Shown piece after piece: positions 32,138 to 64,000 of a DNA stretch of 64,000 nucleotides (positions are counted from its first letter, which is position 1; each line of letters starts with the position of its first letter). A program made the translations under genes and the position numbers. The stretch spans positions 1 through 64,000 of the forward strand of contig JAUCBJ010003608.1 of NCBI GenBank assembly GCA_032718475.1. Reading direction: 5' to 3'. This DNA comes from Nemertoderma westbladi (Eukaryota > Animalia > Xenacoelomorpha). Under the pieces are notes generated by a model. It had not been told where the DNA came from and searched no databases. It saw only the letters and a program-made list of their open reading frames with translations.

Positions 32138-32863
32138 TTACGGTTTCCCTTTCATAGCTATCCCTTTCTTATTAAAGTCACTGAAAGCATTGATAGTCCG
32201 GGTTGGTTGGCTTCTGCTTGTTGATTGGCCGGCTGGTAGGATAGGTCTGCCCGTTGATTGGGCAGCTTTCGCGCGCCTCAGAGCTTCGTTCCGTGCGTTA
32301 GCACTAAGTTTATTAGCCAATCCAGCGAGGCCTTTACCCCCTCCCCCACTGGACAGTAAATCTTTACCGATACCCAGAACACTCTTAGGCGAAGGAGGCG
32401 GGGCAAACAGACTCGAACCGACAAATGTCGGTGAGTCGGCTTTGCATACCAAGTTGTCCGATTTACTAACAGAGGCAGTTTTATTAATCGAAGTGTCCGA
32501 TTTAACGGATGTACTTTCGGTTTTAGGTGGAATGTTTTTAGACTTAGTGGTCACTCCCGTATTACCTGTTGGGTCGTCAAACATCGATATCAGTTTGAGA
32601 CCACCGCGTTCTTTACTTTGTTTACTTTGCACCGGAGGACCACTGGTGGATTTAACTACGTGAGTGGTCTGTTTAGCACCGGTTGTAGCCAGAGTAGAGG
32701 TCGCGTTACTAGGTGACGATTTACTACGTGATTGTGTAACCCGGGGCAACAAGGTTTTCGAAGCGTGATTTAGTTGCGCCCCTCTGTGGTTCTTATTGGA
32801 ATAGGAAGAGGCCAGTCCAGCGAGACCCATCCCACTGCCATTGTTACCACTTTGCGTTGTAAA
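32138..32863 (-). CDS. INTS12: Integrator complex subunit 12, last coding exon (Ser/Gly/Lys-rich tail)
   Basis: Acceptor ttttatttcag| at 32864-32865, phase 0. FTTQSGNNGSGMGLAGLA...GLAGLA...EALRRAKAAQ...stop at 32138; resembles the low-complexity INTS12 C-terminus. Confidence 0.75.
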   Translation of the reverse strand, partial: FTTQSGNNGSGMGLAGLASSYSNKNHRGAQLNHASKTLLPRVTQSRSKSSPSNATSTLATTGAKQTTHVVKSTSGPPVQSKQSKERGGLKLISMFDDPTGNTGVTTKSKNIPPKTESTSVKSDTSINKTASVSKSDNLVCKADSPTFVGSSLFAPPPSPKSVLGIGKDLLSSGGGGKGLAGLANKLSANARNEALRRAKAAQSTGRPILPAGQSTSRSQPTRTINAFSDFNKKGIAMKGKP

Positions 32864-40696: not shown

Positions 40697-40819
40697 CTTA
40701 TGCTCCGAGCGTTTGAACGGTTCTATGGTTTGTTTATCTCCACCTGAGTTCCCTGTATTCTTTGACGAGACTTTCGCGTTGCTAATATTTGCGTCTAACC
40801 GAACTGCCATCTTCTCAAC
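40697..40819 (-). CDS. INTS12: INTS12 internal exon (123 nt)
   Basis: atccag|GTT...AAG|gtaatt, phase 0/0. Ends EPFKRSEHK, matching the INTS12 FKRxExK motif. Confidence 0.8.
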
Positions 40820-41228: not shown

Positions 41229-41391
41229 CTTTGATGATTTCAATTTAGCGATGCATTTATAACAATACCAAACGAAGCGCGGGTCTGATACATCTTTGTC
41301 TGCGATCTCTGGCTGGTGGCACTTCTGGTGGTACAGTCTGTGGCAGTCCTGGCACTCAACTATACGTCGCCCAACTCTCTGGTCCAATGAT
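41229..41391 (-). CDS. INTS12: INTS12 PHD-finger exon
   Basis: ttttccag|A TCA...AAG|gtaaga. (G)SLDQRVGRRIVECQDCHRLYHQKCHQPEIADKDVSDPRFVWYCYKC matches the INTS12 PHD signature ECxxCHxLYHxxCHxP...DPRxVWYCxxC. Confidence 0.9.
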
Positions 41392-41782
41392 CTGGAAAAA
41401 AAACCCAAAATATATAAAACAAGAAAAACTCGCCTGTAAAACACAAATAAATACAATAAAAATTTTCGACAATTTATTATCTAAATCTATTCAGTCAGTA
41501 TTGTGAATGTTTACCGTCCGTACCAATATATAGTTTAAAGATTAAGCCTCTCCATAACTCCTGTAGAACAATGACATTATATTATGCATAACTTTATATA
41601 TATACCAATGACGTGACTTTTTGCAACAGTTGAGATTTTAGAATTCAATATGCGTCAGATGAGATTGCAGTGCTGTGAGTGTTGCTACAGTGGATGGATG
41701 GATACGGCAGGATACGGCATGTTCTACGTTCCTTTTACCGAATTTAGACAATTTTTTTCATATAACATAATAATTGGCTTAC

Positions 41783-41916
41783 CCGCACACTACACACGTG
41801 AGTGACGTCACCATTTCATCCAAACTCGATGGAGTGGCTGGAATATCCTCATCTGATTCGATGTAGCTCCCCCTAGCGGTGTCGTCCAACTCAATAATGT
41901 CGTCACTTTCCGAGTT
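41783..41916 (-). CDS. INTS12: INTS12 exon preceding the PHD exon (not in ORF track); upstream exons lie beyond the window
   Basis: ttattatag|AAC...TGC GG|gtaagc, 134 nt, phase 0 to 2. NSESDDIIELDD...EMVTSLTCVVCG supplies the first CxxC of the PHD finger and joins the next exon in frame. Confidence 0.85.
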
Positions 41917-42012
41917 CTATAATAACAATTTTTTATGAATTTATATAAAATCGAAAAATGAAAGGGGCTCATTAAAACACCAAAGAATAACCATAATATA
42001 ATCGGTCGGTAT

Positions 42013-45000
42013 AGTCGGTCTAATAGAACCCAATCGAACTAATAGAACCTAATCGAACTAATAGAACCCAATCTAACTAACCTGTATTTGTGTCTGTCGG
42101 TCTAATATAACCCAATCTAACTAATAGAACCCAATCTAACTAATAGAACCCAATCTAACTAATAGAACCCAATCTAACTAATAGAACCCAATCTAACTAA
42201 TAGAACCCAATCTAACTAATAGAACCCAATCTAACTAATAGAACCCAATCTAACTAACCTGTATTTGTGTCTATCGGTCTAATAGAACCCAATCTAACAA
42301 ATAGAACCCAAATCTAACTAATCTGTATTTGTGTCTGTCAGTCTAAGAGAACCCAATCTAACTACCCGGTATTTGTGTCTGTCGGTCTAATAGAACCCAA
42401 TCTAACTAATAGAAACCAATCTAACTAACCTGTATTTGTGTCTCTCTGTCTAATAGAACCCAATCTAACTAACCTGTATTTGTTTCTGTCTGTCGGTCTA
42501 ATAGAACCCAATCTAACTAATAAAATCCAATCTAACTACTAGAACCCAATCTAACTAATAGAACCCAATCTAAGTAATAGAACCCAATCTAACTAACCTG
42601 TATTTGTGTCTGTCGGTCTTATAGAACCCAATCTAACTAATAGAACCCAATCTAACTAATAGAACCCAATCTAATTAATAGAACCCAATCTAACTAACCT
42701 GTATTTGTGTCTGTCTGTCTAATATAACCCAATCTAACTAACATGTATTTGTGTCCGCCGGTCTAATAGAACCCAATCTAACTAATATAACCCAATCTAA
42801 CTAATAGAACCCAATCGAACTAACCTGTATTTGTGTCTGTATGTCTAATAGAACCCAATCTAACTAATAAAACCCAATCTAACTAACCTGTATTTGTGTC
42901 CGTCGGTCTAATAGAACCCAATCTAACTAACCTGTATAGTGTATTTGTTTCTGTCGGTCTAATAAAACCCAATCTAACTAACCTGTATTTGTGTCCGTTG
43001 GTCTAATAGAACCCAATCTAACTAATAGAACCCAATCAAACTAACCTGTATTTGTGTCTGTCGGTCTAATAGAACCCAATCTAACTAATAGAACCCAATC
43101 TAACTAATAGAACCCAATCAAACTAACTTGAATTTGTGTCTGTCTGTCGGTCTAATAGAACCCAATCTAACTAACCTGTATTTGTGTCTGTCGGTCTAAT
43201 AGAACCCAATCTAACTAATAGAACCAAATCTAACTAATAGAACCCCATCTAACTAATACAACCCAATCTAACTAATACAACCCAATCTAACTAATAGAAC
43301 CCAATCTAACTAATAGAACCCAATCTAACTAATAGAACCCAATCTAACTAATAAAACCCAATCTAACTAATAGAACCCAATCAAACTAACCTGTATTTGT
43401 GTCCGTCGGTCTAATATAACCCAATCTAACTAATAGAACCCAATCTAACTAATAGAACCCAATCTAACTAACCTGTATTTGTGTCTGTCGGTCTAATAGA
43501 ACCCAATCTAACTAATAGAACCCAATCTAACTAACCTGTATTTGTGTCTGTCGGTCTAATAGAACCCAATCTAACTAATAGAATCCAATCAAACTAATAG
43601 AACCCAATCTAACTAATAGAACCAAATCTAACTAATAGAACCCATTCTAACTAATAGAACCCAATCTAACTAATAGAACCCAATCTAACTAATATAACCC
43701 AATCTAACTAATACAACCCAATCTAACTAATATAACCCAATCTAACTAATAGAACCCAATCTAACTAATAGAACCCAATCTAACTAATAGAACCCAATCT
43801 AACTAATAGAACCCAATCTAACTAATAGAACCCAATCTAACTAATAGAACCCAATCTAACTAATAGAACCCAATCTAACTAATAAAACCCAATCTAACTA
43901 ATAGAACCCAATCAAACTAACCTGTATTTGTGTCTGTCGGTCTAATAGAACTCAATCTAACTAATAGAACCCAATCTAACTAACCTGTATTTGTGTCTGT
44001 CGGTCTAATAGTAATAGAACCCAATCTAACTAATAGAACCCAATCTAACTAACCTGTATTTGTGCTGTCGGTCTAATAGAACCCAATCTAACTAATAGAA
44101 CCCAATCAAACTAATATAACCCAATCTAACTAATAGAACCAAATCTAACTAATAGAACCCATTATAACTAATAGAACCCAATCTAACTAATAGAACCCAA
44201 TCTAACTAATAGAACCCAATCTAACTAATAGAACCCAATCTAACTAATAAAACCCAATCTAACTAATAGAACCCAATCAAACTAACCTGTATTTGTGTCT
44301 GTCGGTCTAATAGAACTCAATCTAACTAATAGAACCAAATCAAACTAATAGAACCCAATCTAACTAATAGAACCCAATCTAACTAATTGAACACATATCT
44401 AACTATCCTGTATTTGTGTCTGTCGGTCTAATAGAACCCAATCTAACTAATAGAACCCAATCTAACTAACCTGTATTTGTGTCTGTCGGTCTAATAGAAC
44501 CCAATCTAACTAATAGAACCCAATCAAACTAATAGAACCCAATCTAACTAATAGAACCAAATCTAACTAATAGAACCCATTCTAACTAATAGAACCCAAT
44601 CTAACTAATAGAACCCAATCTAACTAATAGAACCCAATCTAACTAATAGAACCCAATCTAACTAATAAAACCCAATCTAACTAATAGAACCCAATCAAAC
44701 TAACCTGTATTTGTGTCTGTCGGTCTAATAGAACTCAATCTAACTAATAGAACCCAATCTAACTAATAGAACCCAATCTAACTAACAGAACCCAATCTAA
44801 CTAATATAACCCAATCTAACTAATAGAACCCAATCTAACTAACCTGTATTTGTTTCTGTCGGTCTAATAGAACCCAATCTAACTAATAGAACCCAATCTA
44901 ACTAATAGAACCCAATCTAACTAATAGAACCCAATCTAACTGTGTCTGTCGGTCTAATATAACCCAATCTAACTAATAGAACCCAATCTAACTAACCTGT

Positions 45001-48000
45001 ATTTGTTTCTGTCGGTCCAATAGAACCCAAAGTAACTAATAGAACCCAATCTAACTAATAGAACCCAATCTAACTAATATAACCCAATCTAACTAATATA
45101 ACCCAATCTAACTAACCTGTATTTGTCTCTGTTGGTCTAATAGAACCCAATCTAACTAACCTGTATTTGTGTCTGTCAGTCTAATATAACCCAATCTAAC
45201 TAATAGAACCCAATCGAACTAACCTGTATTTGTTTCTGTCGGTCTATTAGAACCCAATCTAACTAACCTGTATTTGTCTCTGTTGGTCTAATAGAACCCA
45301 ATCTAACTAACCTGTATTTGTGTCTGTCGGTCTAATAGAACCCAATCTAACTAATAGAACCCAATCTAACTAATAGAACCCAATCTAACTAACCTGTATT
45401 TGTGTCTGTCGGTCTAATAGAACCCAATCTAACTAATAGAACCCAATCTAACTAACCTGTATTTGTGTCTGTCGGTCTAATAGAACCCAATCTAACTAAC
45501 CTGTATTTGTGTCTGTCGGTCTAATAGAACCCAATCTAACTAATAGAACCCAATCTAACTAATAGAACCCAATCAAACTAACCTGTATTTGTGTCTGTCG
45601 CTCTAATAGAACCCAATCTAACTAATAGAACCCAATCTAACTAATAGAACCCAATCTAACTAATAGAACCCAATCTAACTAATAGAACCCAATCTAACTA
45701 ATAGAACCCAATCTAACTAATAGAACCCAATCTAACTAATAGAACCCAATCTAACTAATAGAACCTAATCTAACTAATAGAACCCAATCTAACTAATAGA
45801 ACCTAATCTAACTAATAGAACCCAATCTAACTAATAGAACCCAATCTAACTAATAGAACCCAATCTAACTAATAGAACCCAATCTAACTAACCTGTATTT
45901 GTTTCTGTCGGTCTAATAGAACCCAATCTAACTAACCTGTATTTGTGTCTGTCGGTCTAATAGAACCCAATCTAACTAATAGAACCCAATCTAACTAATA
46001 GAACCCAATCTAACTAATAGAACCCAATCTAACTAACCTGTATTTGTGTCTATCGGTCTAATAGAACCCAATCTAACTAATAGAACCCAATCTAACTAAT
46101 AGAACCCAATCTAACTAATAGAACCCAATCTAACTAATAGAACCCAATCTAACTAATAGAACCCAATCTAACTAATAGAACCCAATCTAACTAATAGAAC
46201 CCAATCTAACTAATAGAACCCAATCTAACTAATATAACCCAATCTAACTAACCTGTATTTGTGTCTGTCGGTCTAATAGAACCCAATCTAACTAATAGAA
46301 CCCAATCTAACTAATAGAACCCAATCTAACTAATAGAACCCAATCTAACTAATAGAACCCAATCTAACTAATAGAACCCAATCTAACTAATAGAACCCAA
46401 TCTAACTAATAGAACCCAATCTAACTAATAGAACCCAATCTAACTAATAGAACCCAATCTAACTAATAGAACCCAATCTAACTAATAGAACCCAATCTAA
46501 CTAATAGAACCCAATCTAACTAATAGAACCCAATCTAACTAATAGAACCCAATCTAACTAATAGAACCCAATCTAACTAATAGAACCCAATCTAACTAAT
46601 AGAACCCAATCTAACTAATAGAACCCAATCTAACTCACCTGTATTTGTGTCTGTCGGTCTAATATAACCCAATCTAACTAATAGAACCCAATCTAACTCA
46701 CCTGTATTTGTGTCTGTCGGTCTAATATAACCCAATCTAACTAATAGAACCCAATCTAACTAATAGAACCCAATCTAACTAATAGAACCCAATCTAACTA
46801 ATAGAACCCAATCTAACTAATAGAACCCAATCTAACTAATAGAACCCAATCTAACTAATAGAACCCAATCTAACTCACCTGTATTTGTGTCTGTCGGTCT
46901 AATATAACCCAATCTAACTAATAGAACCCAATCTAACTAATAGAACCCAATCTAACTAATAGAACCCAATCTAACTAATAGAACCCAATCTAACTCACCT
47001 GTATTTGTGTCTGTCGGTCTAATATAACCCAATCTAACTAATAGAACCCAATCTAACTAATAGAACCCAATCTAACTAATAGAACCCAATCTAACTAATA
47101 GAACCCAATCTAACTAATAGAACCCAATCTAACTAATAGAACCCAATCTAACTAATAGAACCCAATCTAACTAATAGAACCCAATCTAACTAATAGAACC
47201 CAATCTAACTAATAGAACCCAATCTAACTAATAGAACCCAATCTAACTAATAGAACCCAATCTAACTAATAGAACCCAATCTAACTAATAGAACCCAATC
47301 TAACTAATAGAACCCAATCTAACTAATAGAACCCAATCTAACTAATAGAACCCAATCTAACTAATAGAACCCAATCTAACTAATAGAACCCAATCTAACT
47401 AATAGAACCCAATCTAACTAATAGAACCCAATCTAACTAATAGAACCCAATCTAACTAATAGAACCCAATCTAACTAATAGAACCCAATCTAACTAATAG
47501 AACCCAATCTAACTAATAGAACCCAATCTAACTAATAGAACCCAATCTAACTAATATAACCCAATCTAACTAACCTGTATTTGTGTCTGTCGGTCTAATA
47601 GAACCCAATCTAACTAATAGAACCCAATCTAACTAATAGAACCCAATCTAACTAATAGAACCCAATCTAACTAATAGAACCCAATCTAACTAATAGAACC
47701 CAATCTAACTAATAGAACCCAATCTAACTAATAGAACCCAATCTAACTAATAGAACCCAATCTAACTAATAGAACCCAATCTAACTAATAGAACCCAATC
47801 TAACTAATAGAACCCAATCTAACTAATAGAACCCAATCTAACTAATAGAACCCAATCTAACTAATATAACCCAATCTAACTAACCTGTATTTGTGTCTGT
47901 CGGTCTAATAGAACCCAATCTAACTAATAGAACCCAATCTAACTAATAGAACCCAATCTAACTAATAGAACCCAATCTAACTAATAGAACCCAATCTAAC

Positions 48001-51000
48001 TAATAGAACCCAATCTAACTAATAGAACCCAATCTAACTAATAGAACCCAATCTAACTAATAGAACCCAATCTAACTAATAGAACCCAATCTAACTAATA
48101 GAACCCAATCTAACTAATAGAACCCAATCTAACTAATAGAACCCAATCTAACTAATAGAACCCAATCTAACTAATAGAACCCAATCTAACTAATAGAACC
48201 CAATCTAACTAATAGAACCCAATCTAACTAATAGAACCCAATCTAACTAATAGAACCCAATCTAACTCACCTGTATTTGTGTCTGTCGGTCTAATATAAC
48301 CCAATCTAACTAATAGAACCCAATGTCTGTCGGTCTAATATAACCCAATCTAACTAATAGAACCCAATCTAACTCACCTGTATTTGTGTCTGTCGGTCTA
48401 ATATAACCCAATCTAACTAATAGAACCCAATCTAACTAATAGAACCCAATCTAACTAATAGAACCCAATCTAACTAATAGAACCCAATCTAACTAATAGA
48501 ACCCAATCTAACTAATAGAACCCAATCTAACTAATAGAACCCAATCTAACTCACCTGTATTTGTGTCTGTCGGTCTAATATAACCCAATCTAACTAATAG
48601 AACCCAATCTAACTAATAGAACCCAATCTAACTAATAGAACCCAATCTAACTAATAGAACCCAATCTAACTCACCTGTATTTGTGTCTGTCGGTCTAATA
48701 TAACCCAATCTAACTAATAGAACCCAATCTAACTAATAGAACCCAATCTAACTAATAGAACCCAATCTAACTAATAGAACCCAATCTAACTAATAGAACC
48801 CAATCTAACTAATAGAACCCAATCTAACTAATAGAACCCAATCTAACTAATAGAACCCAATCTAACTAATAGAACCCAATCTAACTAATAGAACCCAATC
48901 TAACTAATAGAACCCAATCTAACTAATAGAACCCAATCTAACTAATAGAACCCAATCTAACTAATAGAACCCAATCTAACTAATAGAACCCAATCTAACT
49001 AATAGAACCCAATCTAACTAATAGAACCCAATCTAACTAATAGAACCCAATCTAACTAATAGAACCCAATCTAACTAATAGAACCCAATCTAACTAATAG
49101 AACCCAATCTAACTAATAGAACCCAATCTAACTAATAGAACCCAATCTAACTAATAGAACCCAATCTAACTAATAGAACCCAATCTAACTAATATAACCC
49201 AATCTAACTAACCTGTATTTGTGTCTGTCGGTCTAATAGAACCCAATCTAACTAATAGAACCCAATCTAACTAATAGAACCCAATCTAACTAATAGAACC
49301 CAATCTAACTAATAGAACCCAATCTAACTAATAGAACCCAATCTAACTAATAGAACCCAATCTAACTAATAGAACCCAATCTAACTAATAGAACCCAATC
49401 TAACTAATAGAACCCAATCTAACTAATAGAACCCAATCTAACTAATAGAACCCAATCTAACTAATAGAACCCAATCTAACTAATAGAACCCAATCTAACT
49501 AATAGAACCCAATCTAACTAATAGAACCCAATCTAACTAATAGAACCCAATCTAACTAATAGAACCCAATCTAACTCACCTGTATTTGTGTCTGTCGGTC
49601 TAATATAACCCAATCTAACTAATAGAACCCAATTTAACTAACCTGTATTTGTGTCTGTCGGTCTAATAGAACCCAACCTAACTAATAGAACCCAATCTAA
49701 CTAATAGAACCCAATCTAACTAATAGAACCCAATCTAACTAATAGAACCCAATCTAACTAATAGAACCCAACCTAACTAATAGAACCCAATCTAACTAAT
49801 AGAACCCAATCTAACTAATAAAACCCAATCTAACTAATAGAACCAAATCTAACTAATAGAACCCAATCTAAATAATAAAACCCAATCTAACTAATAGAAC
49901 CAAATCTAACTAATAGAACCCAATCTAACTAATAGAACCCAATCTAACTAATAGAACCCAATCTAACTAATAAAACCCAATCTAACTAATAGAACCCAAT
50001 CTAACTAATAGAACCCAATCTAACTAATAGAACCCAATCTAACTAATAGAACCCAATCTAACTAATAGAACCCAATCTAACTAATAGAACCCAATCTAAC
50101 TAATAGAACCCAATCTAACTAATAGAACCCAACCTAACTAATAGAACCCAATCTAACTAATAGAACCCAATCTAACTAATAAAACCCAATCTAACTAATA
50201 GAACCAAATCTAACTAATAGAACCCAATCTAACTAATAGAACCCAATCTAACTAATAGAACCCAATCTAACTAATAGAACCCAATCTAACTAATAGAACC
50301 CAATCTAACTAATAGAACCCAATCTAACTAATAAAACCCAATCTAACTAATAGAACCCAATCTAACTAATAGAACCCAATCTAACTAATAGAACCCAATC
50401 TAACTAATAGAACCCAATCTAACTAATAGAACCCAATCTAACTAATAAAACCCAATCTAACTAATAGAACCCAATCTAACTAATAGAACCCAATCTAACT
50501 AATATAACCCAATCTAACTAACCTGTATTTGTGTCTGTCGGTCTAATAGAACCCAATCTAACTAATAGAACCCAATCTAACTAATAGAACCCAATCTAAC
50601 TAATAGAACCCAATCTAACTAATAGAACCCAATCTAACTAATAAAACCCAATCTAACTAATAGAACCAAATCTAACTAATAGAACCCAATCTAACTAATA
50701 GAACCCAATCTAACTAATAGAACCCAATCTAACTAATAGAACCCAATCTAACTAATAAAACCCAATCTAACTAATAGAACCCAATCTAACTAATAGAACC
50801 CAATCTAACTAATATAACCCAATCTAACTAACCTGTATTTGTGTCTGTCGGTCTAATAGAACCCAATCTAACTAATAGAACCCAATCTAACTAATAGAAC
50901 CCAATCTAACTAATAGAACCCAATCTAACTAATAGAACCCAATCTAACTAATAGAACCCAATCTAACTAATAGAACCCAATCTAACTAATAGAACCCAAT

Positions 51001-54000
51001 CTAACTAATAGAACCCAATCTAACTAATAGAACCCAATCTAACTAATAGAACCCAATCTAACTAATAGAACCCAATCTAACTAATAGAACCCAATCTAAC
51101 TAATAGAACCCAATCTAACTAATAGAACCCAATCTAACTAATAGAACCCAATCTAACTAATAGAACCCAATCTAACTCACCTGTATTTGTGTCTGTCGGT
51201 CTAATATAACCCAATCTAACTAATAGAACCCAATCTAACTAATAGAACCCAATTTAACTAACCTGTATTTGTGTCTGTCGGTCTAATAGAACCCAATCTA
51301 ACTAATAGAACCCAATCTAACTAATAGAACCCAATCTAACTAATAGAACCCAATCTAACTAATAGAACCCAATCTAACTAATAGAACCCAACCTAACTAA
51401 TAGAACCCAATCTAACTAATAGAACCCAATCTAACTAATAAAACCCAATCTAACTAATAGAACCAAATCTAACTAATAGAACCCAATCTAACTAATAAAA
51501 CCCAATCTAACTAATAGAACCAAATCTAACTAATAGAACCCAATCTAACTAATAGAACCCAATCTAACTAATAGAACCCAATCTAACTAATAAAACCCAA
51601 TCTAACTAATAGAACCCAATCTAACTAATAGAACCCAATCTAACTAATAGAACCCAATCTAACTAATAGAACCCAATCTAACTAATAGAACCCAATCTAA
51701 CTAATAGAACCCAATCTAACTAATAGAACCCAATCTAACTAATAGAACCCAATCTAACTAATAGAACCCAATCTAACTAATAGAACCCAACCTAACTAAT
51801 AGAACCCAATCTAACTAATAGAACCCAATCTAACTAATAAAACCCAATCTAACTAATAGAACCAAATCTAACTAATAGAACCCAATCTAACTAATAGAAC
51901 CCAATCTAACTAATAGAACCCAATCTAACTAATAGAACCCAATCTAACTAATAGAACCCAATCTAACTAATAGAACCCAATCTAACTAATAAAACCCAAT
52001 CTAACTAATAGAACCCAATCTAACTAATAGAACCCAATCTAACTAATAGAACCCAATCTAACTAATAGAACCCAATCTAACTAATAGAACCCAATCTAAC
52101 TAATAAAACCCAATCTAACTAATAGAACCCAATCTAACTAATAGAACCCAATCTAACTAATAGAACCCAATCTAACTAATAGAACCCAATCTAACTAATA
52201 GAACCCAATCTAACTAATAGAACCCAATCTAACTAATAGAACCCAATCTAACTAATAGAACCCAATCTAACTAATAGAACCCAATCTAACTAATAGAACC
52301 CAATCTAACTAATAGAACCCAATCTAACTAATAGAACCCAATCTAACTAATAGAACCCAACCTAACTAATAGAACCCAATCTAACTAATAGAACCCAATC
52401 TAACTAATAAAACCCAATCTAACTAATAGAACCAAATCTAACTAATAGAACCCAATCTAACTAATAAAACCCAATCTAACTAATAGAACCAAATCTAACT
52501 AATAGAACCCAATCTAACTAATAGAACCCAATCTAACTAATAGAACCCAATCTAACTAATAAAACCCAATCTAACTAATAGAACCCAATCTAACTAATAG
52601 AACCCAATCTAACTAATAGAACCCAATCTAACTAATAGAACCCAATCTAACTAATAGAACCCAATCTAACTAATAGAACCCAATCTAACTAATAGAACCC
52701 AATCTAACTAATAGAACCCAACCTAACTAATAGAACCCAATCTAACTAATAGAACCCAATCTAACTAATAAAACCCAATCTAACTAATAGAACCAAATCT
52801 AACTAATAGAACCCAATCTAACTAATAGAACCCAATCTAACTAATAGAACCCAATCTAACTAATAGAACCCAATCTAACTAATAGAACCCAATCTAACTA
52901 ATAGAACCCAATCTAACTAATAAAACCCAATCTAACTAATAGAACCCAATCTAACTAATAGAACCCAATCTAACTAATAGAACCCAATCTAACTAATAGA
53001 ACCCAATCTAACTAATAGAACCCAATCTAACTAATAAAACCCAATCTAACTAATAGAACCCAATCTAACTAATAGAACCCAATCTAACTAATATAACCCA
53101 ATCTAACTAACCTGTATTTGTGTCTGTCGGTCTAATAGAACCCAATCTAACTAATAGAACCCAATCTAACTAATAGAACCCAATCTAACTAATAGAACCC
53201 AATCTAACTAATAGAACCCAATCTAACTAATAGAACCCAATCTAACTAATAGAACCCAATCTAACTAATAGAACCCTATCTAACTAATAGAACCCAATCT
53301 AACTAATAGAACCCAATCTAACTAATAGAACCCAATCTAACTAATAGAACCCAATCTAACTAATAGAACCCAATCTAACTAATAAAACCCAATCTAACTA
53401 ATAGAACCCAATCTAACTAATAGAACCCAATCTAACTAATAGAACCCAATCTAACTAATAGAACCCAATCTAACTAATAGAACCCAATCTAACTAATAGA
53501 ACCCAATCTAACTAATAGAACCCAATCTAACTAATAGAACCCAATCTAACTAATATAACCCAATCTAACTAATAGAACCCAATCTAACTAATAGAACCCA
53601 ATCTAACTAATAGAACCCAATCTAACTAATAGAACCCAATCTAACTAATAGAACCCAATCTAACTAATAGAACCCAATCTAACTCACCTGTATTTGTGTC
53701 TGTCGGTCTAATATAACCCAATCTAACTAATAGAACCCAATCTAACTAATAGAACCCAATCTAACTAATAGAACCCAATCTAACTAATAGAACCCAATCT
53801 AACTAATAGAACCCAATCTAACTCACCTGTATTTGTGTCTGTCGGTCTAATATAACCCAATCTAACTAATAGAACCCAATCTAACTAATAGAACCCAATC
53901 TAACTAATAGAACCCAATCTAACTAATAGAACCCAATCTAACTAATAGAACCCAATCTAACTAATAGAACCCAATCTAACTAATAGAACCCAATCTAACT

Positions 54001-55661
54001 AATAGAACCCAATCTAACTAATAGAACCCAATCTAACTAATAGAACCCAATCTAACTAATAGAACCCAATCTAACTAATAGAACCCAATCTAACTAATAG
54101 AACCCAATCTAACTAATAGAACCCAATCTAACTAATAGAACCCAATCTAACTAATAGAACCCAATCTAACTAATAGAACCCAATCTAACTAATAGAACCC
54201 AATCTAACTAATAGAACCCAATCTAACTAATAGAACCCAATCTAACTAATATAACCCAATCTAACTAACCTGTATTTGTGTCTGTCGGTCTAATAGAACC
54301 CAATCTAACTAATAGAACCCAATCTAACTAATAGAACCCAATCTAACTAATAGAACCCAATCTAACTAATAGAACCCAATCTAACTAATAGAACCCAATC
54401 TAACTAATAGAACCCAATCTAACTAATAGAACCCAATCTAACTAATAGAACCCAATCTAACTAATAGAACCCAATCTAACTAATAGAACCCAATCTAACT
54501 AATAGAACCCAATCTAACTAATAGAACCCAATCTAACTAATAGAACCCAATCTAACTAATAGAACCCAATCTAACTAATAGAACCCAATCTAACTAATAG
54601 AACCAAATCTAACTAATAGAACCCAATCTAACTCACCTGTATTTGTGTCTGTCGGTCTAATATAACCCAATCTAACTAATAGAACCCAATCTAACTAATA
54701 GAACCCAATTTAACTAACCTGTATTTGTGTCTGTCGGTCTAATAGAACCCAATCTAACTAATAGAACCCAATCTAACTAATAGAACCCAATCTAACTAAT
54801 AGAACCCAATCTAACTAATAGAACCCAATCTAACTAATAGAACCCAACCTAACTAATAGAACCCAATCTAACTAATAGAACCCAATCTAACTAATAGAAC
54901 CCAACCTAACTAATAGAACCCAATCTAACTAATAGAACCCAATCTAACTAATAAAACCCAATCTAACTAATAGAACCAAATCTAACTAATAGAACCCAAT
55001 CTAACTAATAGAACCCAATCTAACTAATAGAACCCAATCTAACTAATAGAACCCAATCTAACTAATAGAACCCAATCTAACTAATAGAACCCAATCTAAC
55101 TAATAAAACCCAATCTAACTAATAGAACCCAATCTAACTAATAGAACCCAATCTAACTAATAGAACCCAATCTAACTAATAGAACCCAATCTAACTAATA
55201 GAACCCAATCTAACTAATAAAACCCAATCTAACTAATAGAACCCAATCTAACTAATAGAACCCAATCTAACTAATATAACCCAATCTAACTAACCTGTAT
55301 TTGTGTCTGTCGGTCTAATAGAACCCAATCTAACTAATAGAACCCAATCTAACTAATAGAACCCAATCTAACTAATAGAACCCAATCTAACTAATAGAAC
55401 CCAATCTAACTAATAGAACCCAATCTAACTAATAGAACCCAATCTAACTAATAGAACCCAATCTAACTAATAGAACCCAATCTAACTAATAGAACCCAAT
55501 CTAACTAATAGAACCCAATCTAACTAATAGAACCCAATCTAACTCACCTGTATTTGTGTCTGTCGGTCTAATATAACCCAATATAACTAATAGAACCCAA
55601 TCTAACTAATAGAACCCAATTTAACTAACCTGTATTTGTGTCTGTCGGTCTAATAGAACCC
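42013..55661. repeat. 19-bp satellite with interspersed 25-bp unit, intronic in INTS12 (left block)
   Basis: Unit aatagaacccaatctaact; interspersed (a/c)acctgtatttgtgtctgtcggtct. Confidence 0.98.
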
Positions 55662-55864
55662 TGTAACATAACTTCCAATGTATCGGTATATATTTGAGGA
55701 TATCAAATACTGATATATAACATAACACATAAAGGCCGGCAAACCACAAACCGGTACAATATACCTAAATGTACTAGGCCTACTGCTAACTACGAAAGTA
55801 GGTAAATCCTAGGCCTATGTGTTATATCCAATATGTCAGACACATGACTGACCCATATCACACA
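55662..55864 (-). repeat. 3' LTR
   Basis: tgtaacataac...catatcacaca, identical by eye to 61109-61311. Polypurine tract gggaagggggaa (minus) at 55865-55876. Confidence 0.95.
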
Positions 55865-56044
55865 TTCCCCCTTCCCTGTTGGGAGAGTTGTCCGGGAAGA
55901 TAGATGGTGTCATGCTTGGCATTATGTATATATCACTTGGGACCTAGAGGAGTCTATTGGTGGGGCATGCAATATAATAGTTTGTGGAGTCCTCAGTTTT
56001 ATATAAGTCCTTATCAAAGTCATGTATACAAGTCCTTATCAAAC

Positions 56045-56986
56045 TCATCTGTTTTCTCCTCTCCACCCAGGCATTCTCAACGACCCAGACCAATCCTGAC
56101 TGATAAATTTGCGGTTGGGTGTGCGGTTCCTGGTAGATATCCTGGTCATAGGTATCGGTGTTGGTAGTTCCTTGGTTGGCATTCTTGTTGTACGCGGTAC
56201 ATGAGATGGTTCTACATCGTCACGCTCTCTCATGTCACCTTTGTCAGTTTGTTTGTTTCCTGTGTTATCGTCAGTGGCCTCCCGGATGCGAATAAGAGTA
56301 CGATTGCGGCGCCAAACTCGTCCACTTGTCTTTTTAATAAGATACTCATGTTTGTCCATGGCTTCCACGATGGTGCCTGGAATGGTCCATTTACCAGTTA
56401 CATGGTCTTGCATCACCACATGTGTCCCCACGGCGATTTCTTTAAGAGGTGCTGTTTTTGTCTGATAGCGAGCATGTGAGATGGCTTTTCGTGACTCTGT
56501 GGTCTCATCCATCTCCTTGAGGGTTCTACTCCACCTTGGGTCATATGCACGTCTGTGTGTAGGGAGAGTATCGCGCAGATTGTGACCATAAATAGCCTGG
56601 GATGGTGAGCGACCTCCATACCGGGGAGTATTCCGGTAGGCAATTATGCCAGCCGCCAGTTTGTCTGGGTTTGGCTTTCCGCCATTGGGAGGTGTGGCCC
56701 CTTTGACAATCTTTTTCATCGCTTTTACCAGAGCCTCGGCACGTCCATTGGTCTGCGGTTTGTGTGGTGAAGCAGGTTCTATTGCCACGCCCCACCACGT
56801 GAGGAAAGTTTTAACTTCACGGGATACCAGGTTGGTGCCGTTGTCTGGATGGTACACAGTTGGGACAGCATGGGTAAGAAAGAATGATCGTAATGCATTT
56901 ACAATTTTGATTGAAGTCATACCTTCTCCAAGTGTGGCGACTGCAGGCCACCCGGAGAACTCATCAACGATAATGAGGTAGTGGCA
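56045..56986 (-). CDS. Integrase catalytic core and C-terminus (out of frame with upstream pol)
   Basis: CHYLIIVDEFSGWP...HPDNGTNL...SPHKPQTNGRAEALVK...YRNTP...SPSQ...RRNR. Confidence 0.88.
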   Translation of the reverse strand, partial: CHYLIIVDEFSGWPAVATLGEGMTSIKIVNALRSFFLTHAVPTVYHPDNGTNLVSREVKTFLTWWGVAIEPASPHKPQTNGRAEALVKAMKKIVKGATPPNGGKPNPDKLAAGIIAYRNTPRYGGRSPSQAIYGHNLRDTLPTHRRAYDPRWSRTLKEMDETTESRKAISHARYQTKTAPLKEIAVGTHVVMQDHVTGKWTIPGTIVEAMDKHEYLIKKTSGRVWRRNRTLIRIREATDDNTGNKQTDKGDMRERDDVEPSHVPRTTRMPTKELPTPIPMTRISTRNRTPNRKFISQDWSGSLRMPGWRGENR

Positions 56987-59900
56987 ACATAACCATCTAC
57001 AATGAAAGTGTCAACATCTATCTTCTGAAAAGGTCGGGTAGCCTGTGGGTTGTGCTGTTGGGGCTCAGCTCTGTGAGAAGGTAGAGATGAGGCGCATGTG
57101 GTACAGCTGGACACTGTCTGCTTGACGTCATTAATAACTTCAGGCCACCACACGGATTGGCGTGCTCGGGCCAAGGTTTTGTCTATTCCTTGATGTGCGG
57201 CATGGAGTTGTGTGAGGACTGATTTACGCATACCAGATGGAATGACAATCCGGGATCCAAACATAATGAGTCCATCAACTGCAGAGATTTGATCACGGTG
57301 CCTGAAGTAAGGGAGGAGGGCATCATAGCCATTGGTCTGCAGTTCCTGTTTACTGGCTGGCCAGCCATGGGTAACGATATCATTAAGCTTAATATGTGTC
57401 TGGTCGTCACTGGATGCCTCCCGCAACTGTTTGAGCAGTACATCATCATCATCAATGGAAGAGGCCTGCCAATAATTGATAATTGCTGCGCATGGTTGTG
57501 GTCCACTATGCCAACATTTGTCCTCTGCATCACATGCCCCACAAAGCAAAGAGAACAAAGTTGCTACTACAAATTCTCGGTCAGCTTCTTCTTCAGGCGT
57601 GAGCATGTAGTCTTCATCAGTTGGTGCATTGATTTCTGCACGGGAGAAGGCATCTGCCATTATGTGTTTGGCCCCTGCTTGCCATCGTGCGGTGAAGGTG
57701 TGGCGCGATAGGGCAGTCTTCATTTTTAGAAGTCTATCATTGGAGATTTGATCAAGACGACGCTGGTTGAGAATGGGAACCAGAGGATTCGAGTCAGTGA
57801 CCACAGTAAAATGTGTCATACCATCCAAGAAGAATCGGCATTTAGATGCAGCCCAGGCGACAGAGAGGGCCTCCAACTCTGCCATGCCACTCCACTTGGC
57901 CTCATGTGGGGCCAATGTACGACTGCCACACTGAACAGTTTTCCATACTGCATTCTTATCTCGTTGACGCAAAACGAATCCAAGGCCATGTAATCTAGAT
58001 GCATCACAATACATTTCGGTCTCATGGTTGGGGTCATAGTAAGCAAGGCATAAGGGACTTGTCAGTGCCTTTATTGTGGATACGAATGCAATTTCATGAG
58101 CCCTAGTCCATACCCAAGCCATGTTATTCTTGTTAAGGGAGCGAAGGGGTTCAACTAGGCGTGTTATCTCATTAGTAAAATTTCCCAACTGTTGGGCCAG
58201 CCCAAGGAATGATCGCAGCGTGGTGCGGTTGTGAGGTTTAGGGAACTCTCTCAGATCCTGGACTAGTTTAGGGTCTATCTCATACTTGCCCTTGGAGATT
58301 TTGAATCCCCCAAAAATGACTGTCTCCTGGCAATATTGTATCTTGCGTGTGTTCAATGAAATGTCATTGGCATCACACGCATAGAGGAGCTGTCGCACTG
58401 CCTCTTTGTGTTCTGCCTCCGTTTCTGTAAATATCAGGATGTCCTCAACAATTCGACGAGATTTTGGGACATCTTTTAATGCTGTGTCCATGCGAGAGTT
58501 GTATACATCAGATGCACCACACCATCCCATAGGCATCCTAATATACCGCATTCGGCCATATGGAGTCAAGAATGTGGTAAGTCCCCTGCTTCCCTCTGCG
58601 AGCTCCAGCTGGTGGAATCCTTTCAAACCATCTACTACAGTAAAGAATGTTGCAGATGCAGGCAGGGTGGCAACAATCTGGTGAGGTGATGGGGACGGGA
58701 AGGTGGGACGGATTGTAGCATCATTTATAGCGCGCATATCTATAGTGACCCGGCATGCGGAAGGGTCCTTCTTCTTTGTTACAACCATAGGACTACACCA
58801 TTCTGAAGGATTGGCATCATCTGTAGCCTTCTCGATGATGCCCATATCAATTTGTGCTTGTATTTCACGCTTAAATGGTTCAACCAGGTTAATGGGGATC
58901 TGACGTGTGTGGTGCACTGCAACGGGTACTGCATCTGTGTGAATTCTAATCACCACTGGTGGACCCTTCATTATGCGGCAAATTCCAGACAATACATTGG
59001 GAAATTCTTCTATGAGGTCAACTGGTAGAGCACCATTTGATGTACTACTATTGCATTGGTGCGGATTGGTGAATGGTGGTGTCATCATATGGCAATTAGC
59101 TTGATTGAAGTTTCCAATTTGTGTATGGAATTTGTCAGCATTATCACTATATCCTGAGAGTCCCCCATTAATATGTTCACTGGCTAGGATAGTGAGGGCA
59201 AAGCATGCAGTCCGAGACAGTAGTGGCTTAGCTAGGCCATGCACCACATATGCATCTACATCGGTACTGAGGCCCTTAAATGATACACGTGCCCTGAATG
59301 TACCAAGGAGCTTGAGTCCTTTATTTGACCCATCAGCGCATTTTGGGGCTGGGGGTGGGTTGGTTGTGTTGCTCAATTGGTGCCATTTAATACCCATGGC
59401 CTTGGGTACATCAGGACTCACTGCCATAAGATTGGCCCCGCCATCAGCTAAAATTGAGACATTTGTCTTGAACCGTAATGGGTGATCGGCACTTGCCACA
59501 AGCACTTGAGTGAGTTCTAGTGGCTGCAGTTCATCCAGCTGTCGTGCTGTGCCATCTGCAGCAGCAATACGGGCCAGAGCTTTAGTAGAATCAGGACTGG
59601 GTACTAGGGCCAAACACGTGAGTAGTGTTGGGTCCCCCCGGAGACTAGATAGATTTGGTGCGTTGTCACTGTTAGATGGATACTGGCCCTCGTATAGATA
59701 TTGACCTTCGTTATTTATATTGGTGTTATTAGGGGACCATACGGTGTTGTAGGCCTGCGGTTGTCTTTGGCCCCTATTGTACCGATCATTGCCGCCAGTA
59801 TATGTGCCGCGGCCCATGTATCCACCACGGCCAATTTGTCTACTACGTGTATTGTTCCTAGCACCATTGGTGTGGGATGGGCAGCATCGATTATAGTGGC

Positions 59901-60738
59901 CAGATTTGCTGCAATGTGTACATATCTCACCAATTGCAGGGCAGGTGCGAAATTTCTGGCCCGGGCCATGTGGGAGTTCATGGCCACAATAAAAGCATTT
60001 CTTTGTCTTGGACTTGGCCACAAGTCTGTTTGTATCACCACTTCCACTAGTCATACTAGTTGACCTTGCAGTGCTAATGTCTGAGCGTGTCTTACGGGCA
60101 GCCTCCATTGACTCAGCTACCTTTAGTGCTTCAGTGAAAGTGACTGTTTCAGGAAGTTCCAGGAGGCGGTCTGCAATCTCTTTATCATTACCCGGCATGA
60201 GAATAAGTTGCTTAAGAAGGTTGTCATTCATTGCATCTGTGGCATTTCTGGCAGTAAATGGAAAGTCACACTTGGTTCCAATTTTACGTAGGGCCACAAC
60301 AAACTCTGCAAAAGTCTCATTGTCCTGTTTCCCTCTTATACCGAATTCATTTCGGTATTTCCAAACATTCCGCCCACCTAGAATAAATTTATCCAATGCA
60401 GCAATAATGGCATCTGGGGAGTTCCAGTCAGCATCTGTCATACCTAGCCCATCTAGAGTCTCTACTGTGTTCCTGGAGAGTGATGCAAGGAGCTCATTCC
60501 TTGTAATTTTCTGCTTTGCAGCCCTTAGTGTTGCTGTCATTTCATCGCTGGGAAAATGTTCACCAGTACGTGGATCGACTTCAAGTAGTCGATCGATACC
60601 GGATGTCCCGAGGAAGTTTTCCCATTGCCGTTTCCATGTCCGCCATTGGTCAGCCTCTGTTTCAATATCGAATTTCTCACATGGGCGTTTAACCATGAAC
60701 ATGCGTGGGTCAAACTTGGATGGGATTGTCTCTTCCAT
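56917..60738 (-). CDS. Gag-Pol polyprotein (gag, protease, RT, RNase H, integrase Zn finger)
   Basis: First ATG gccATGg at 60738 (frame open upstream to 60975). CFYCG..H..CPA..CTHCSKSGHYNRCC; ILADGGAN; VVDGLKGFHQ, TPYGR, MPMG, IVEDILI; CDAS, ELEAL, TDSNPL, ADAFSR; HAAHQG...CTTC. Confidence 0.93.
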   Translation of the reverse strand: MEETIPSKFDPRMFMVKRPCEKFDIETEADQWRTWKRQWENFLGTSGIDRLLEVDPRTGEHFPSDEMTATLRAAKQKITRNELLASLSRNTVETLDGLGMTDADWNSPDAIIAALDKFILGGRNVWKYRNEFGIRGKQDNETFAEFVVALRKIGTKCDFPFTARNATDAMNDNLLKQLILMPGNDKEIADRLLELPETVTFTEALKVAESMEAARKTRSDISTARSTSMTSGSGDTNRLVAKSKTKKCFYCGHELPHGPGQKFRTCPAIGEICTHCSKSGHYNRCCPSHTNGARNNTRSRQIGRGGYMGRGTYTGGNDRYNRGQRQPQAYNTVWSPNNTNINNEGQYLYEGQYPSNSDNAPNLSSLRGDPTLLTCLALVPSPDSTKALARIAAADGTARQLDELQPLELTQVLVASADHPLRFKTNVSILADGGANLMAVSPDVPKAMGIKWHQLSNTTNPPPAPKCADGSNKGLKLLGTFRARVSFKGLSTDVDAYVVHGLAKPLLSRTACFALTILASEHINGGLSGYSDNADKFHTQIGNFNQANCHMMTPPFTNPHQCNSSTSNGALPVDLIEEFPNVLSGICRIMKGPPVVIRIHTDAVPVAVHHTRQIPINLVEPFKREIQAQIDMGIIEKATDDANPSEWCSPMVVTKKKDPSACRVTIDMRAINDATIRPTFPSPSPHQIVATLPASATFFTVVDGLKGFHQLELAEGSRGLTTFLTPYGRMRYIRMPMGWCGASDVYNSRMDTALKDVPKSRRIVEDILIFTETEAEHKEAVRQLLYACDANDISLNTRKIQYCQETVIFGGFKISKGKYEIDPKLVQDLREFPKPHNRTTLRSFLGLAQQLGNFTNEITRLVEPLRSLNKNNMAWVWTRAHEIAFVSTIKALTSPLCLAYYDPNHETEMYCDASRLHGLGFVLRQRDKNAVWKTVQCGSRTLAPHEAKWSGMAELEALSVAWAASKCRFFLDGMTHFTVVTDSNPLVPILNQRRLDQISNDRLLKMKTALSRHTFTARWQAGAKHIMADAFSRAEINAPTDEDYMLTPEEEADREFVVATLFSLLCGACDAEDKCWHSGPQPCAAIINYWQASSIDDDDVLLKQLREASSDDQTHIKLNDIVTHGWPASKQELQTNGYDALLPYFRHRDQISAVDGLIMFGSRIVIPSGMRKSVLTQLHAAHQGIDKTLARARQSVWWPEVINDVKQTVSSCTTCASSLPSHRAEPQQHNPQATRPFQKIDVDTFIVDGYVATTSLSLMSSPGGLQSPHLEKV

Positions 60739-61090
60739 GGCAATGGTGTTACCTTCCTCTTCGCTGTTTTCTCCTTCAATGGTTGGGTCGTCGTGCAAAA
60801 CCTGTAGGCTGCAGTAGTTGGGCGAATGGAGGAATGGTGCGATGCGTGTAATGGGGTGCCGGGGCGGAAGACGTCCAGATTGCAGCGGCGTAGGCGGAGG
60901 GGATGGCGTCCTGCCAGCGAGGCGGGAAGACGACCGCGTGGTTACTGTTTGTGGTTGCCGGCCTGAGAATATATACTAGAATCCGGCCAGCCAGGATTCT
61001 ACAGAGCCACCCTGCCCGAGTTGCCAGGCTACTGGGGGCTGTGGCCGTTAATAATCAATAGTGTATCCATTAGGAGAGTTCTGTAGTAAA

Positions 61091-61108
61091 ATCCTACTCG
61101 CAGCGCCA
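61091..61108 (-). promoter_or_regulatory. Primer-binding site, probably tRNA-Ser
   Basis: TGGCGCTGCGAGTAGGAT directly after the 5' LTR; complementary to ...ATCCTACTCGCAGCG-CCA, which resembles animal tRNA-Ser 3' ends. Confidence 0.78.
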
Positions 61109-61311
61109 TGTAACATAACTTCCAATGTATCGGTATATATTTGAGGATATCAAATACTGATATATAACATAACACATAAAGGCCGGCAAACCACAAACCG
61201 GTACAATATACCTAAATGTACTAGGCCTACTGCTAACTACGAAAGTAGGTAAATCCTAGGCCTATGTGTTATATCCAATATGTCAGACACATGACTGACC
61301 CATATCACACA
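61109..61311 (-). repeat. 5' LTR
   Basis: Identical by eye to 55662-55864. Confidence 0.95.
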
Positions 61312-64000
61312 AACCCAATCTAACTAATAGAACCCAATCTAACTAATAGAACCCAATCTAACTAATAGAACCCAATCTAACTAATAGAACCCAATCTAAC
61401 TAATAGAACCCAACCTAACTAATAGAACCCAATCTAACTAATAGAACCCAATCTAACTAATAAAACCCAATCTAACTAATAGAACCAAATCTAACTAATA
61501 GAACCCAATCTAACTAATAAAACCCAATCTAACTAATAGAACCAAATCTAACTAATAGAACCCAATCTAACTAATAGAACCCAATCTAACTAATAGAATC
61601 CAATCTAACTAATAAAACCCAATCTAACCAATAGAACCCAATCTAACTAATAGAACCCAATCTAACTAATAGAACCCAATCTAACTAATAGAACCCAATC
61701 TAACTAATAGAACCCAATCTAACTAATAGAACCCAATCTAACTAATAGAACCCAATCTAACTAATAGAACCCAATCTAACTAATAGAACCCAATCTAACT
61801 AATAGAACCCAATCTAACTAATAGAACCCAACCTAACTAATAGAACCCAATCTAACTAATAGAACCCAATCTAACTAATAAAACCCAATCTAACTAATAG
61901 AACCAAATCTAACTAATAGAACCCAATCTAACTAATAGAACCCAATCTAACTAATAGAACCCAATCTAACTAATAGAACCCAATCTAACTAATAGAACCC
62001 AATCTAACTAATAGAACCCAATCTAACTAATAAAACCCAATCTAACTAATAGAACCCAATCTAACTAATAGAACCCAATCTAACTAATAGAACCCAATCT
62101 AACTAATAGAACCCAATCTAACTAATAGAACCCAATCTAACTAATAAAACCTAATCTAACTAATAGAACCCAATCTAACTAATAGAACCCAATCTAACTA
62201 ATAGAACCCAATCTAACTAATAGAACCCAATCTAACTAATAGAACCCAATCTAACTAATAGAACCCAATCTAACTAATAGAACCCAATCTAACTAATAGA
62301 ACCCAATCTAACTAATAGAACCCAATCTAACTAATAGAACCCAATCTAACTAATAGAACCCAATCTAACTAATAGAACCCAATCTAACTAATAGAACCCA
62401 ATCTAACTCACCTGTATTTGTGTCTGTCGGTCTAATATAACCCAATCTAACTAATAGAACCCAATCTAACTAATAGAACCCAATCTAACTAATAGAACCC
62501 AATCTAACTAATAGAACCCAATCTAACTAATAGAACCCAATCTAACTAATAGAACCCAATCTAACTAATAGAACCCAATCTAACTAATAGAACCCAATCT
62601 AACTAATAGAACCCAATCTAACTAATAGAACCCAATCTAACTAATAGAACCCAATCTAACTAATAGAACCCAATCTAACTAATAGAACCCAATCTAACTA
62701 ATATAACCCAATCTAACTAACCTGTATTTGTGTCTGTCGGTCTAATAGAACCCAATCTAACTAATAGAACCCAATCTAACTAATAGAACCCAATCTAACT
62801 AATAGAACCCAATCTAACTAATAGAACCCAATCTAACTAATAGAACCCAATCTAACTAATAGAACCCAATCTAACTAATAGAACCCAATCTAACTAATAG
62901 AACCCAATCTAACTAATAGAACCCAATCTAACTAATAGAACCCAATCTAACTAATAGAACCCAATCTAACTAATAGAACCCAATCTAACTAATAGAACCC
63001 AATCTAACTAATAGAACCCAATCTAACTCACCTGTATTTGTGTCTGTCGGTCTAATATAACCCAATCTAACTAATAGAACCCAATCTAACTAATAGAACC
63101 CAATTTAACTAACCTGTATTTGTGTCTGTCGGTCTAATAGAACCCAATCTAACTAATAGAACCCAATCTAACTAATAGAACCCAATCTAACTAATAGAAC
63201 CCAATCTAACTAATAGAACCCAATCTAACTAATAGAACCCAACCTAACTAATAGAACCCAATCTAACTAATAGAACCCAATCTAACTAATAAAACCCAAT
63301 CTAACTAATAGAACCAAATCTAACTAATAGAACCCAATCTAACTAATAAAACCCAATCTAACTAATAGAACCAAATCTAACTAATAGAACCCAATCTAAC
63401 TAATAGAACCCAATCTAACTAATAGAACCCAATCTAACTAATAAAACCCAATCTAACTAATAGAACCCAATCTAACTAATAGAACCCAATCTAACTAATA
63501 GAACCCAATCTAACTAATAGAACCCAATCTAACTAATAGAACCCAATCTAACTAATAGAACCCAATCTAACTAATAGAACCCAATCTAACTAATAGAACC
63601 CAACCTAACTAATAGAACCCAATCTAACTAATAGAACCCAATCTAACTAATAAAACCCAATCTAACTAATAGAACCAAATCTAACTAATAGAACCCAATC
63701 TAACTAATAGAACCCAATCTAACTAATAGAACCCAATCTAACTAATAGAACCCAATCTAACTAATAGAACCCAATCTAACTAATAGAACCCAATCTAACT
63801 AATAAAACCCAATCTAACTAATAGAACCCAATCTAACTAATAGAACCCAATCTAACTAATAGAACCCAATCTAACTAATAGAACCCAATCTAACTAATAA
63901 AACCCAATCTAACTAATAGAACCCAATCTAACTAATAGAACCCAATCTAACTAATAGAACCCAATCTAACTAATAGAACCCAATCTAACTAATAGAACCC
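61312..64000. repeat. 19-bp satellite, right block (continues beyond window)
   Basis: Same units as 42013-55661, resuming in register after the TSD. Confidence 0.98.

What the first reader, a model, noticed from the sequence alone, without database searches (positions are those of the whole stretch)
42013..64000. Giant INTS12 intron is a satellite carrying ~70 copies of a splice-site cassette (AG|20 nt|GT(T/G)AGT) on the transcribed strand
Seen: on the INTS12 (minus) strand the interspersed 25-bp unit reads gggtt(c/a)tattAG|ACCGACAGACACAAATACAG|GTTAGT. About 16 copies (e.g. ~46637, 48269, 53686, 62410) carry CAG|GTGAGT, the perfect U1 consensus donor; about 70 copies in all by eye. The 20 nt read xAC CGA CAG ACA CAA ATA CAG (-RQTQIQ) and end in phase 0, the phase in which the next real exon (41916) begins. 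Known: YAG|GTRAGT is the recursive-splicing ratchet motif of very long introns. Inference: the array may be an amplified exon end plus donor, or an amplified microexon. That would give dozens of competing donors, ratchet points or microexons in a conserved snRNA-processing gene. Against this, the CAG lacks a pyrimidine tract.
Basis: partly seen in the sequence, partly recalled or inferred. Interest (0 to 1): 0.8.

Follow-up and report, generated by a model that had tools for sequence, protein, structure and literature searches.

The report
Diluted splice-donor satellite in INTS12 intron
An intron of an animal's INTS12 gene holds a repeat array of over 16 kb with about 70 copies of a splice-donor-like signal diluted among about 690 shorter units and split by a young retrotransposon; it is likely an amplified exon-intron border of a known, likely tolerated kind, but the exon it would come from lies outside the window and no RNA was seen.

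Summary
The copies are real: 70 matches to the 20-nt core on the INTS12 strand and none on the other; 16 read CAG|GTGAGT and 50 read CAG|GTTAGT. The region is not one 22-kb satellite. A 5.65-kb Ty3/gypsy-type element with identical LTRs splits it.

The array mixes 687 19-bp units with 70 long units, 64 of them 44 bp; the 19-mer is the 44-mer minus 25 bp between two TTAG repeats. Long units are densest and most diverged at the visible edge, where the array ends inside a 44-mer. The 44-mer is therefore likely ancestral: about 14 nt of exon end plus 30 nt of intron start, a 'mirage' minisatellite (odds about 0.75). All 16 perfect donors likely descend from one mutation.

Recursive splicing and microexons are unsupported: no pyrimidine tract, a 20-nt frameshift, and an in-frame stop after every intact internal donor of both types. 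The upstream exon is outside the window and no RNA run was listed, so the defining test is open. The scan already noted 13 junction arrays elsewhere in this genome (unreviewed notes).

The parts
61312..64000 (-). 5' visible part of the compound 19/44-bp array (131 short units, 4 long units, 2 with CAG|GTGAGT); runs off the window
42014..55661 (-). 3' part of the array; long units rise from about 4% of units inside to 32% at the edge
46631..63067 (-). Span holding all 16 perfect-donor (GTGAGT) units; all 16 also carry the C-to-A variant at unit position 10
   Evidence: 44 C/T, 16 A/G, 4 A/T, 0 C/G of 64 44-mers
42014..42019 (-). Array end: ACCGAC, the first 6 nt of the 'core', followed by unique sequence; likely end of the ancestral duplicated unit
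   Evidence: role inferred
41917..42013 (-). 97-nt unique AT-rich intron tail with the acceptor AG
55662..61311 (-). Ty3/gypsy-type LTR retrotransposon, same orientation as INTS12, inserted into a long unit with a 5-bp GGGTT target duplication
61109..61311 (-). 5' LTR, 203 bp, followed by a primer-binding-site-like TGG motif
55662..55864 (-). 3' LTR, 203 of 203 identical to the 5' LTR, preceded by a purine tract
56917..60975 (-). 1352-codon frame with reverse transcriptase, RNase H and integrase zinc finger
56045..57010 (-). Integrase core in a second, overlapping frame
41783..41916 (-). Predicted INTS12 exon (134 nt, phase 0 start): acidic linker and start of the PHD finger
41229..41391 (-). 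Predicted INTS12 PHD-finger exon (163 nt)
40697..40819 (-). Predicted INTS12 exon (123 nt)
32138..32863 (-). Predicted last INTS12 coding exon (726 nt with stop)

Best explanation
The array is likely a giant 'mirage' minisatellite: a 44-bp piece that would have covered the last ~14 nt of the unseen upstream INTS12 exon and the first ~30 nt of a once short intron, copied head to tail and then likely diluted by a donor-less 19-bp deletion derivative. Shown: unit structure, the 25-bp difference bounded by TTAG repeats, the edge-to-interior gradient, linkage of the GTGAGT variant, 0.7-0.8-kb higher-order blocks and the retrotransposon insertion. Inferred: (1) the 44-mer came first and the ancestral intron was about 127 nt (30 + 97); (2) slippage between the TTAG repeats made the 19-mer, which now makes up 90% of units; (3) one T-to-G change made the perfect donor, and block duplication spread it to 16 copies; (4) the retrotransposon jumped in last; (5) splicing uses the first, authentic donor and removes the whole array, and any transcript cut at an internal donor would meet a stop two codons after the true exon end. 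The array is most likely a tolerated by-product of repeat turnover, not a control device.
For: Donor strength: the commonest unit scores 8 of 9 against MAG|GTRAGT on the sense strand. 2.1% of mononucleotide and 2.4% of dinucleotide shuffles (20,000 each), 6 of 698 background windows and 0 of 9 other satellite units in the window reach that on the strands tested; 2 of the gene's 3 real donors score 8. Ancestry of the 44-mer: long units are 41 of 179 units at the edge against 29 of 583 inside (Fisher p 3e-11, units not independent). Edge 44-mers carry 45 substitutions in 35 copies against 2 in 29 inside. All 11 adjacent long-long pairs lie at or below 45972, and the array ends inside a 44-mer. 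Cluster borders escape homogenisation in amphioxus mirages (PMC3087553, passages). The 14-nt tail is open in phase 0, matching the next exon (weak, as all three frames are open). Single origin of the G variant: 16 of 16 linked to the position-10 variant. First-donor use in such arrays: PMC1557585 (abstract, Introduction, Discussion). Thirteen unreviewed scan notes describe such arrays in this genome; they raise the prior but are not evidence for this locus.
Against: The upstream exon and the 5' end of the array are not in the window, and no genome is held, so the defining feature is unseen. Any rotation of a unit that contains a donor fits this model, so the end register alone does not separate it from an ordinary satellite. 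About 2% of random units of this make-up carry such a donor, and the locus was picked for having one. The other two satellites in INTS12 introns (20 bp, 26 bp) are not junction-derived. Only one edge is visible, so the direction 44 to 19 is inferred. None of 150 INTS12-like proteins has the peptide near the expected place (one QTQI hit at residue 9 of P0174), but this linker is not conserved.
Confidence: 0.74

Rival explanations
1. Ordinary intronic compound minisatellite whose unit contains a donor-like 9-mer by chance; no exon sequence is involved and the sites are silent.
For: The window is full of satellites, including two in other INTS12 introns that have no junction sequence. The GTTAGT is partly made of the monomer's own TTAG. 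The chance level is about 2% per unit.
Against: The donor is on the sense strand at 8 of 9; the array abuts a short unique tail and nothing else fills the visible intron apart from the insertion; junction arrays are reported often in this genome (unreviewed notes).
Confidence: 0.15
2. Same origin as the best explanation, but the perfect CAG|GTGAGT copies are used at a measurable rate as competing or nested donors and give stop-containing INTS12 transcripts, which lowers INTS12 output in proportion to copy number.
For: In F7 constructs only pseudo-sites that perfectly match the consensus drew splicing away from the first site (PMC1557585 Discussion). 16 such sites exist here. One unreviewed note (e1-10614089) reports use of an internal variant donor in another array of this genome.
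Against: The F7 sites were a few repeats from the exon; here the nearest perfect copy is about 950 nt or more from it and no acceptor is shown that would define an exon for them. The 16 copies are explained by one mutation and block duplication. No RNA data.
Confidence: 0.08
3. The cassettes act as recursive-splicing ratchet points or as 20-nt microexons.
For: CAG|GT is present in 66 copies in an intron of at least 22 kb. The real acceptor at 41916 is itself pyrimidine-poor (7 of 17), and many published recursive sites lack the tract (Table 1 of PMC10156609), so the test is not absolute.
Against: 0 of 83 YAGGT sites have a Y5 tract; 1 T in the 17 nt upstream; another AG lies 14 nt upstream. 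A 20-nt exon shifts the frame, and its acceptor context is shared with about 690 plain units.
Confidence: 0.03

Closest known systems
Human F7 intron 7 37-bp VNTR, with the 6-16 (IFI6), CBS, LMNB2 and PDGF minisatellites it cites (PMC1557585; abstract, Introduction, Discussion read)
   Same: Tandem unit carrying a donor site on the sense strand of an intron; first donor likely used.
   Different: 5-25 copies there, about 70 donor units in more than 16 kb here; here 90% of units have lost the donor, 16 have a perfect one, a retrotransposon splits the array, and overlap with the real exon is unverified.
Amphioxus 'mirage' minisatellites: Adh3, globins BflGb6 and BflGb9 (PMC3087553; passages read)
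   Same: Unit length in the reported 10-160 bp range, homogenised interior with diverged borders, many but not all units with splice signals.
   Different: Scale (762 units against 3-6 in BflGb6), two unit lengths, and no RT-PCR or exon check here.
Recursive splice sites / ratchet points (PMC10156609; passages read)
   Same: YAG|GT in a long intron.
   Different: No polypyrimidine tract, sites are repeat copies, no saw-tooth or lariat data.
Ty3/gypsy LTR retrotransposons (for the insert)
   Same: LTRs with TG...CA ends, 5-bp target duplication, RT, RNase H, integrase order, purine tract.
   Different: Integrase is split over two frames; clade not tested (the double zinc knuckle recalls the Mag clade, from memory).

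Membership tests
Mirage / junction-spanning minisatellite | Head-to-tail repeat inside an intron of a host gene | tested here: met
   intron status rests on the missing conserved N-terminus.
Mirage / junction-spanning minisatellite | Units carry a splice signal on the sense strand | tested here: met
   66 sites at 8 or 9 of 9; best antisense score 5. Only about 9% of units carry it.
Mirage / junction-spanning minisatellite | First unit overlaps the authentic exon-intron border | not testable with these tools
   Exon beyond 64000; no genome, no run listed, no contig, no near-identical protein.
Mirage / junction-spanning minisatellite | mRNA is spliced at the first donor | not testable with these tools
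   No RNA holder listed.
Mirage / junction-spanning minisatellite | Concerted evolution with diverged cluster borders | tested here: met
   one border only.
Recursive splice site | Polypyrimidine tract plus YAG joined to GT (Y5+N0-4YAGGT) | tested here: not met
   0 of 83 YAGGT sites in the array.
Recursive splice site | Saw-tooth coverage or lariat reads | not testable with these tools
   No reads.
Microexon | Frame-preserving length and a distinct acceptor | tested here: not met
   20 nt; the AG context is that of the plain monomer.
INTS12 | INTS12-type PHD finger | tested here: met
   Pfam PHD; best solved-structure hit 1WEV at E 6e-19, next at 4e-6; 59-61% to proteins named INTS12.
INTS12 | Conserved N-terminal domain | tested here: inconclusive
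   Not in the window; expected beyond 64000.
Ty3/gypsy LTR retrotransposon | Paired LTRs, target-site duplication, RT-RNase H-integrase order | tested here: met

The most novel reading that the evidence does not exclude
A mirage array caught in a splice-site tug of war inside a conserved gene: a donor-less deletion unit has taken over 90% of the array because it purges decoy donors, while a newly perfected donor has spread to 16 copies and diverts part of INTS12 splicing into stop-containing transcripts, so repeat composition sets INTS12 dose.
Probability: 0.08. Interest if true: 0.6.

Novelty: new member of a known kind. Interest (0 to 1): 0.25.

Why it matters
If the origin holds, this shows a later stage in the life of a junction satellite: most units have lost the donor, a few have gained a perfect one, and a retrotransposon has moved in, so its exonic origin is almost erased. 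It would also be a natural test of first-donor selection against 16 perfect decoys over more than 22 kb. The kind is known from human and amphioxus genes and was noted repeatedly in this genome, so this locus adds a variation and no new mechanism.

Tried and rejected
No whole genome is held. The RNA run search on 40600-42010 listed no RNA holder; this is no evidence either way, and no reads were laid. An exact 27-nt exon-start pattern found 0 metagenome contigs. The PHD exon searched against longer proteins gave 3 candidates and no hit; the best identity among 150 listed representatives was 64%, so no same-species protein showed the upstream exon. The neighbouring PSD/EFA6 gene gave only 40-49% matches across bilaterians, so the organism was not identified by my calls. 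Scan look-ups near this place and by sequence returned nothing, and no note on INTS12 came up. A source for the 14-nt tail elsewhere in the window: only 2-mismatch plus-strand hits, 30 in the unrelated 26-bp satellite and one at 11933. An invariant 8-column stretch in the presumed exon tail is not significant (shuffle p 0.07). The rank correlation used a wrong column index; the corrected value is rho -0.62, n 64. Exon borders were off by a base and were corrected. Paper searches for a description of such giant arrays: 4 papers; 9 papers, listing only; 0 papers; 0 papers; passages on introns and satellites in one acoelomorph genome paper (PMC10565955) do not mention them. Supplements were not read.

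Full report
Observation. The 20-nt core occurs 48 times exactly and 70 times with up to 3 substitutions on the minus strand, and never on the plus strand. Sixteen copies read CAG|GTGAGT and 50 read CAG|GTTAGT.

Host gene. Four predicted exons (41916-41783, 41391-41229, 40819-40697, 32863-32138) have AG/GT borders and give 381 codons and one final stop. The second carries a PHD finger. Its best solved-structure match is 1WEV at E 6e-19, far ahead of other PHD fingers (that this entry is mouse INTS12 is recalled). Two of five looked-up top relatives are named integrator complex subunit 12 and the other three carry no name. In 31 of 32 relatives with an intact start and a PHD match, 112-251 residues precede the PHD cysteines, against about 55 in the window. 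A profile of 34 N-termini finds nothing in six frames of the window. That N-terminal domain is needed for Integrator binding (bioRxiv 10.64898/2026.06.30.735463, passages). So an upstream exon is expected beyond 64000 and the intron is at least 22,084 nt. This is inferred.

Bases 55662-61311 are an LTR retrotransposon: 203-bp LTRs identical at 203 of 203 positions, a GGGTT target duplication, and RT, RNase H and integrase domains in Ty3/gypsy order, with the integrase split over two frames. It lies in the same orientation as INTS12 and has no AATAAA or ATTAAA in its LTR. The array pattern continues across it, and 0.7-0.8-kb blocks recur on both sides, so it arrived late. The satellite in view is 16,337 bp.

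Anatomy of the array. Of 762 units, 687 are 19 bp, 70 are long (64 of exactly 44 bp) and 5 are other. The 44-mer is the 19-mer plus 25 bp, and the difference is bounded by two TTAG repeats. Long units make up 41 of 179 units at or below 46500 and 29 of 583 above. Edge 44-mers carry 45 substitutions in 35 copies and inner ones 2 in 29 (rho -0.62). All 11 runs of adjacent long units are near the edge. The array ends after ACCGAC, six bases into the 'core', and 97 unique bases then lead to the acceptor. Borders of tandem arrays escape homogenisation (PMC3087553, passages), so the 44-mer is likely the older unit and the 19-mer its deletion product. All 16 GTGAGT units carry a second variant at unit position 10 that also occurs in 4 edge GTTAGT units, and none lies below about 46630. 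One mutation followed by block duplication explains them.

Origin. Rotated to end at ACCGAC, the 44-mer reads 14 nt (AGACACAAATACAG), then GT and 28 more bases. That is the layout of a duplicated exon end plus intron start, and it implies an ancestral intron of about 127 nt. For comparison, the gene's third visible intron would be 86 nt without its 323-bp satellite. The commonest donor scores 8 of 9 against MAG|GTRAGT (consensus as in PMC1557585). This is reached by 2.1-2.4% of shuffled units, 6 of 698 background windows and 0 of 9 other satellite units in the window, while 2 of 3 real donors of the gene reach it. That is a likelihood ratio near 25-30. With a guessed prior of 0.1-0.2 it gives about 0.75-0.85. 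Before looking at scan notes I put this reading at 40%. Thirteen unreviewed notes on junction arrays in the same genome raised my prior and supplied the name and the two key papers. The end register by itself does not discriminate, since any rotation of a donor-bearing unit fits.

How it likely works. In human F7 and related arrays the most upstream donor is selected and the copies stay mostly silent; only perfect-consensus copies drew some splicing (PMC1557585, abstract, Introduction, Discussion). Here, use of an internal donor would retain the start of the intron, which reads Val-Ser-stop in the exon's phase for both donor types. Only the first donor could give protein. The array is therefore likely tolerated. 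Whether the 16 perfect copies leak is open.

Rejected readings. Recursive sites: 0 of 83 YAGGT in the array match the Y5+N0-4YAGGT motif of PMC10156609 (passages), and the 17 nt before the CAG hold 1 T against 7-12 at real acceptors. The caveat is that the real acceptor at 41916 is weak too and many published sites lack the tract. Microexons: 20 nt shifts the frame and the AG belongs to the plain monomer.

Limits. No genome, no RNA holder listed, no contig and no same-species protein. The feature that defines the family, overlap with the true exon border, could not be tested. It works like a mirage minisatellite and is likely one. The organism is a bilaterian animal from a poorly sampled lineage; scan notes suggest an acoelomorph worm, which I did not test. 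My paper searches and passages of one acoelomorph genome paper found no description of arrays of this size; other papers seen as passages only were PMC2812944. Supplements were not read.

Verdict. Observation partly confirmed, with the retrotransposon and unit structure corrected. Likely a new member of a known kind, with an unusual degree of donor loss. Interest 0.25.

Noticed in passing
window 55662-61311: Young Ty3/gypsy-type element in sense orientation inside the INTS12 intron; identical LTRs suggest it may still be polymorphic.
   Followed up: partly
window 14808-17463 (+): PDZ-Sec7-PH (PSD/EFA6) gene with no obvious intron; the PDZ and Sec7-PH parts lie in different frames that overlap at a C-rich repeat near 15700-15850, so an assembly slip or a tiny intron is possible.
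   Followed up: partly
window 40872-41194 and 33086-39479: Two more satellites (20 bp and 26 bp units) in INTS12 introns, neither carrying a good donor; three of the four visible introns hold satellites.
   Followed up: partly
window 21719-31821: Abutting satellites (50 bp x 65 at 99% identity, 21 bp x 251, then 38 bp x 36) between the PSD and INTS12 3' ends.
   Followed up: no
window 4054-7139 (-): Frames resembling a LINE endonuclease/RT remnant (by recall), interrupted by a 30/33-bp repeat and a GCGGTG microsatellite that keep the frame open.
   Followed up: no
window 1-567 (+): End of an open frame resembling the C-terminus of VPS35L (recalled; no Pfam hit).
   Followed up: no
44-mer columns 27-34: No substitution in 64 copies in part of the presumed exon tail; shuffle p 0.07, so only a hint of homogenisation with the real exon.
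   Followed up: partly
window 20878-21122: Two inverted copies of about 110 bp (near 20920-21030 and 21035-21110), by eye; possibly a small foldback element.
   Followed up: no
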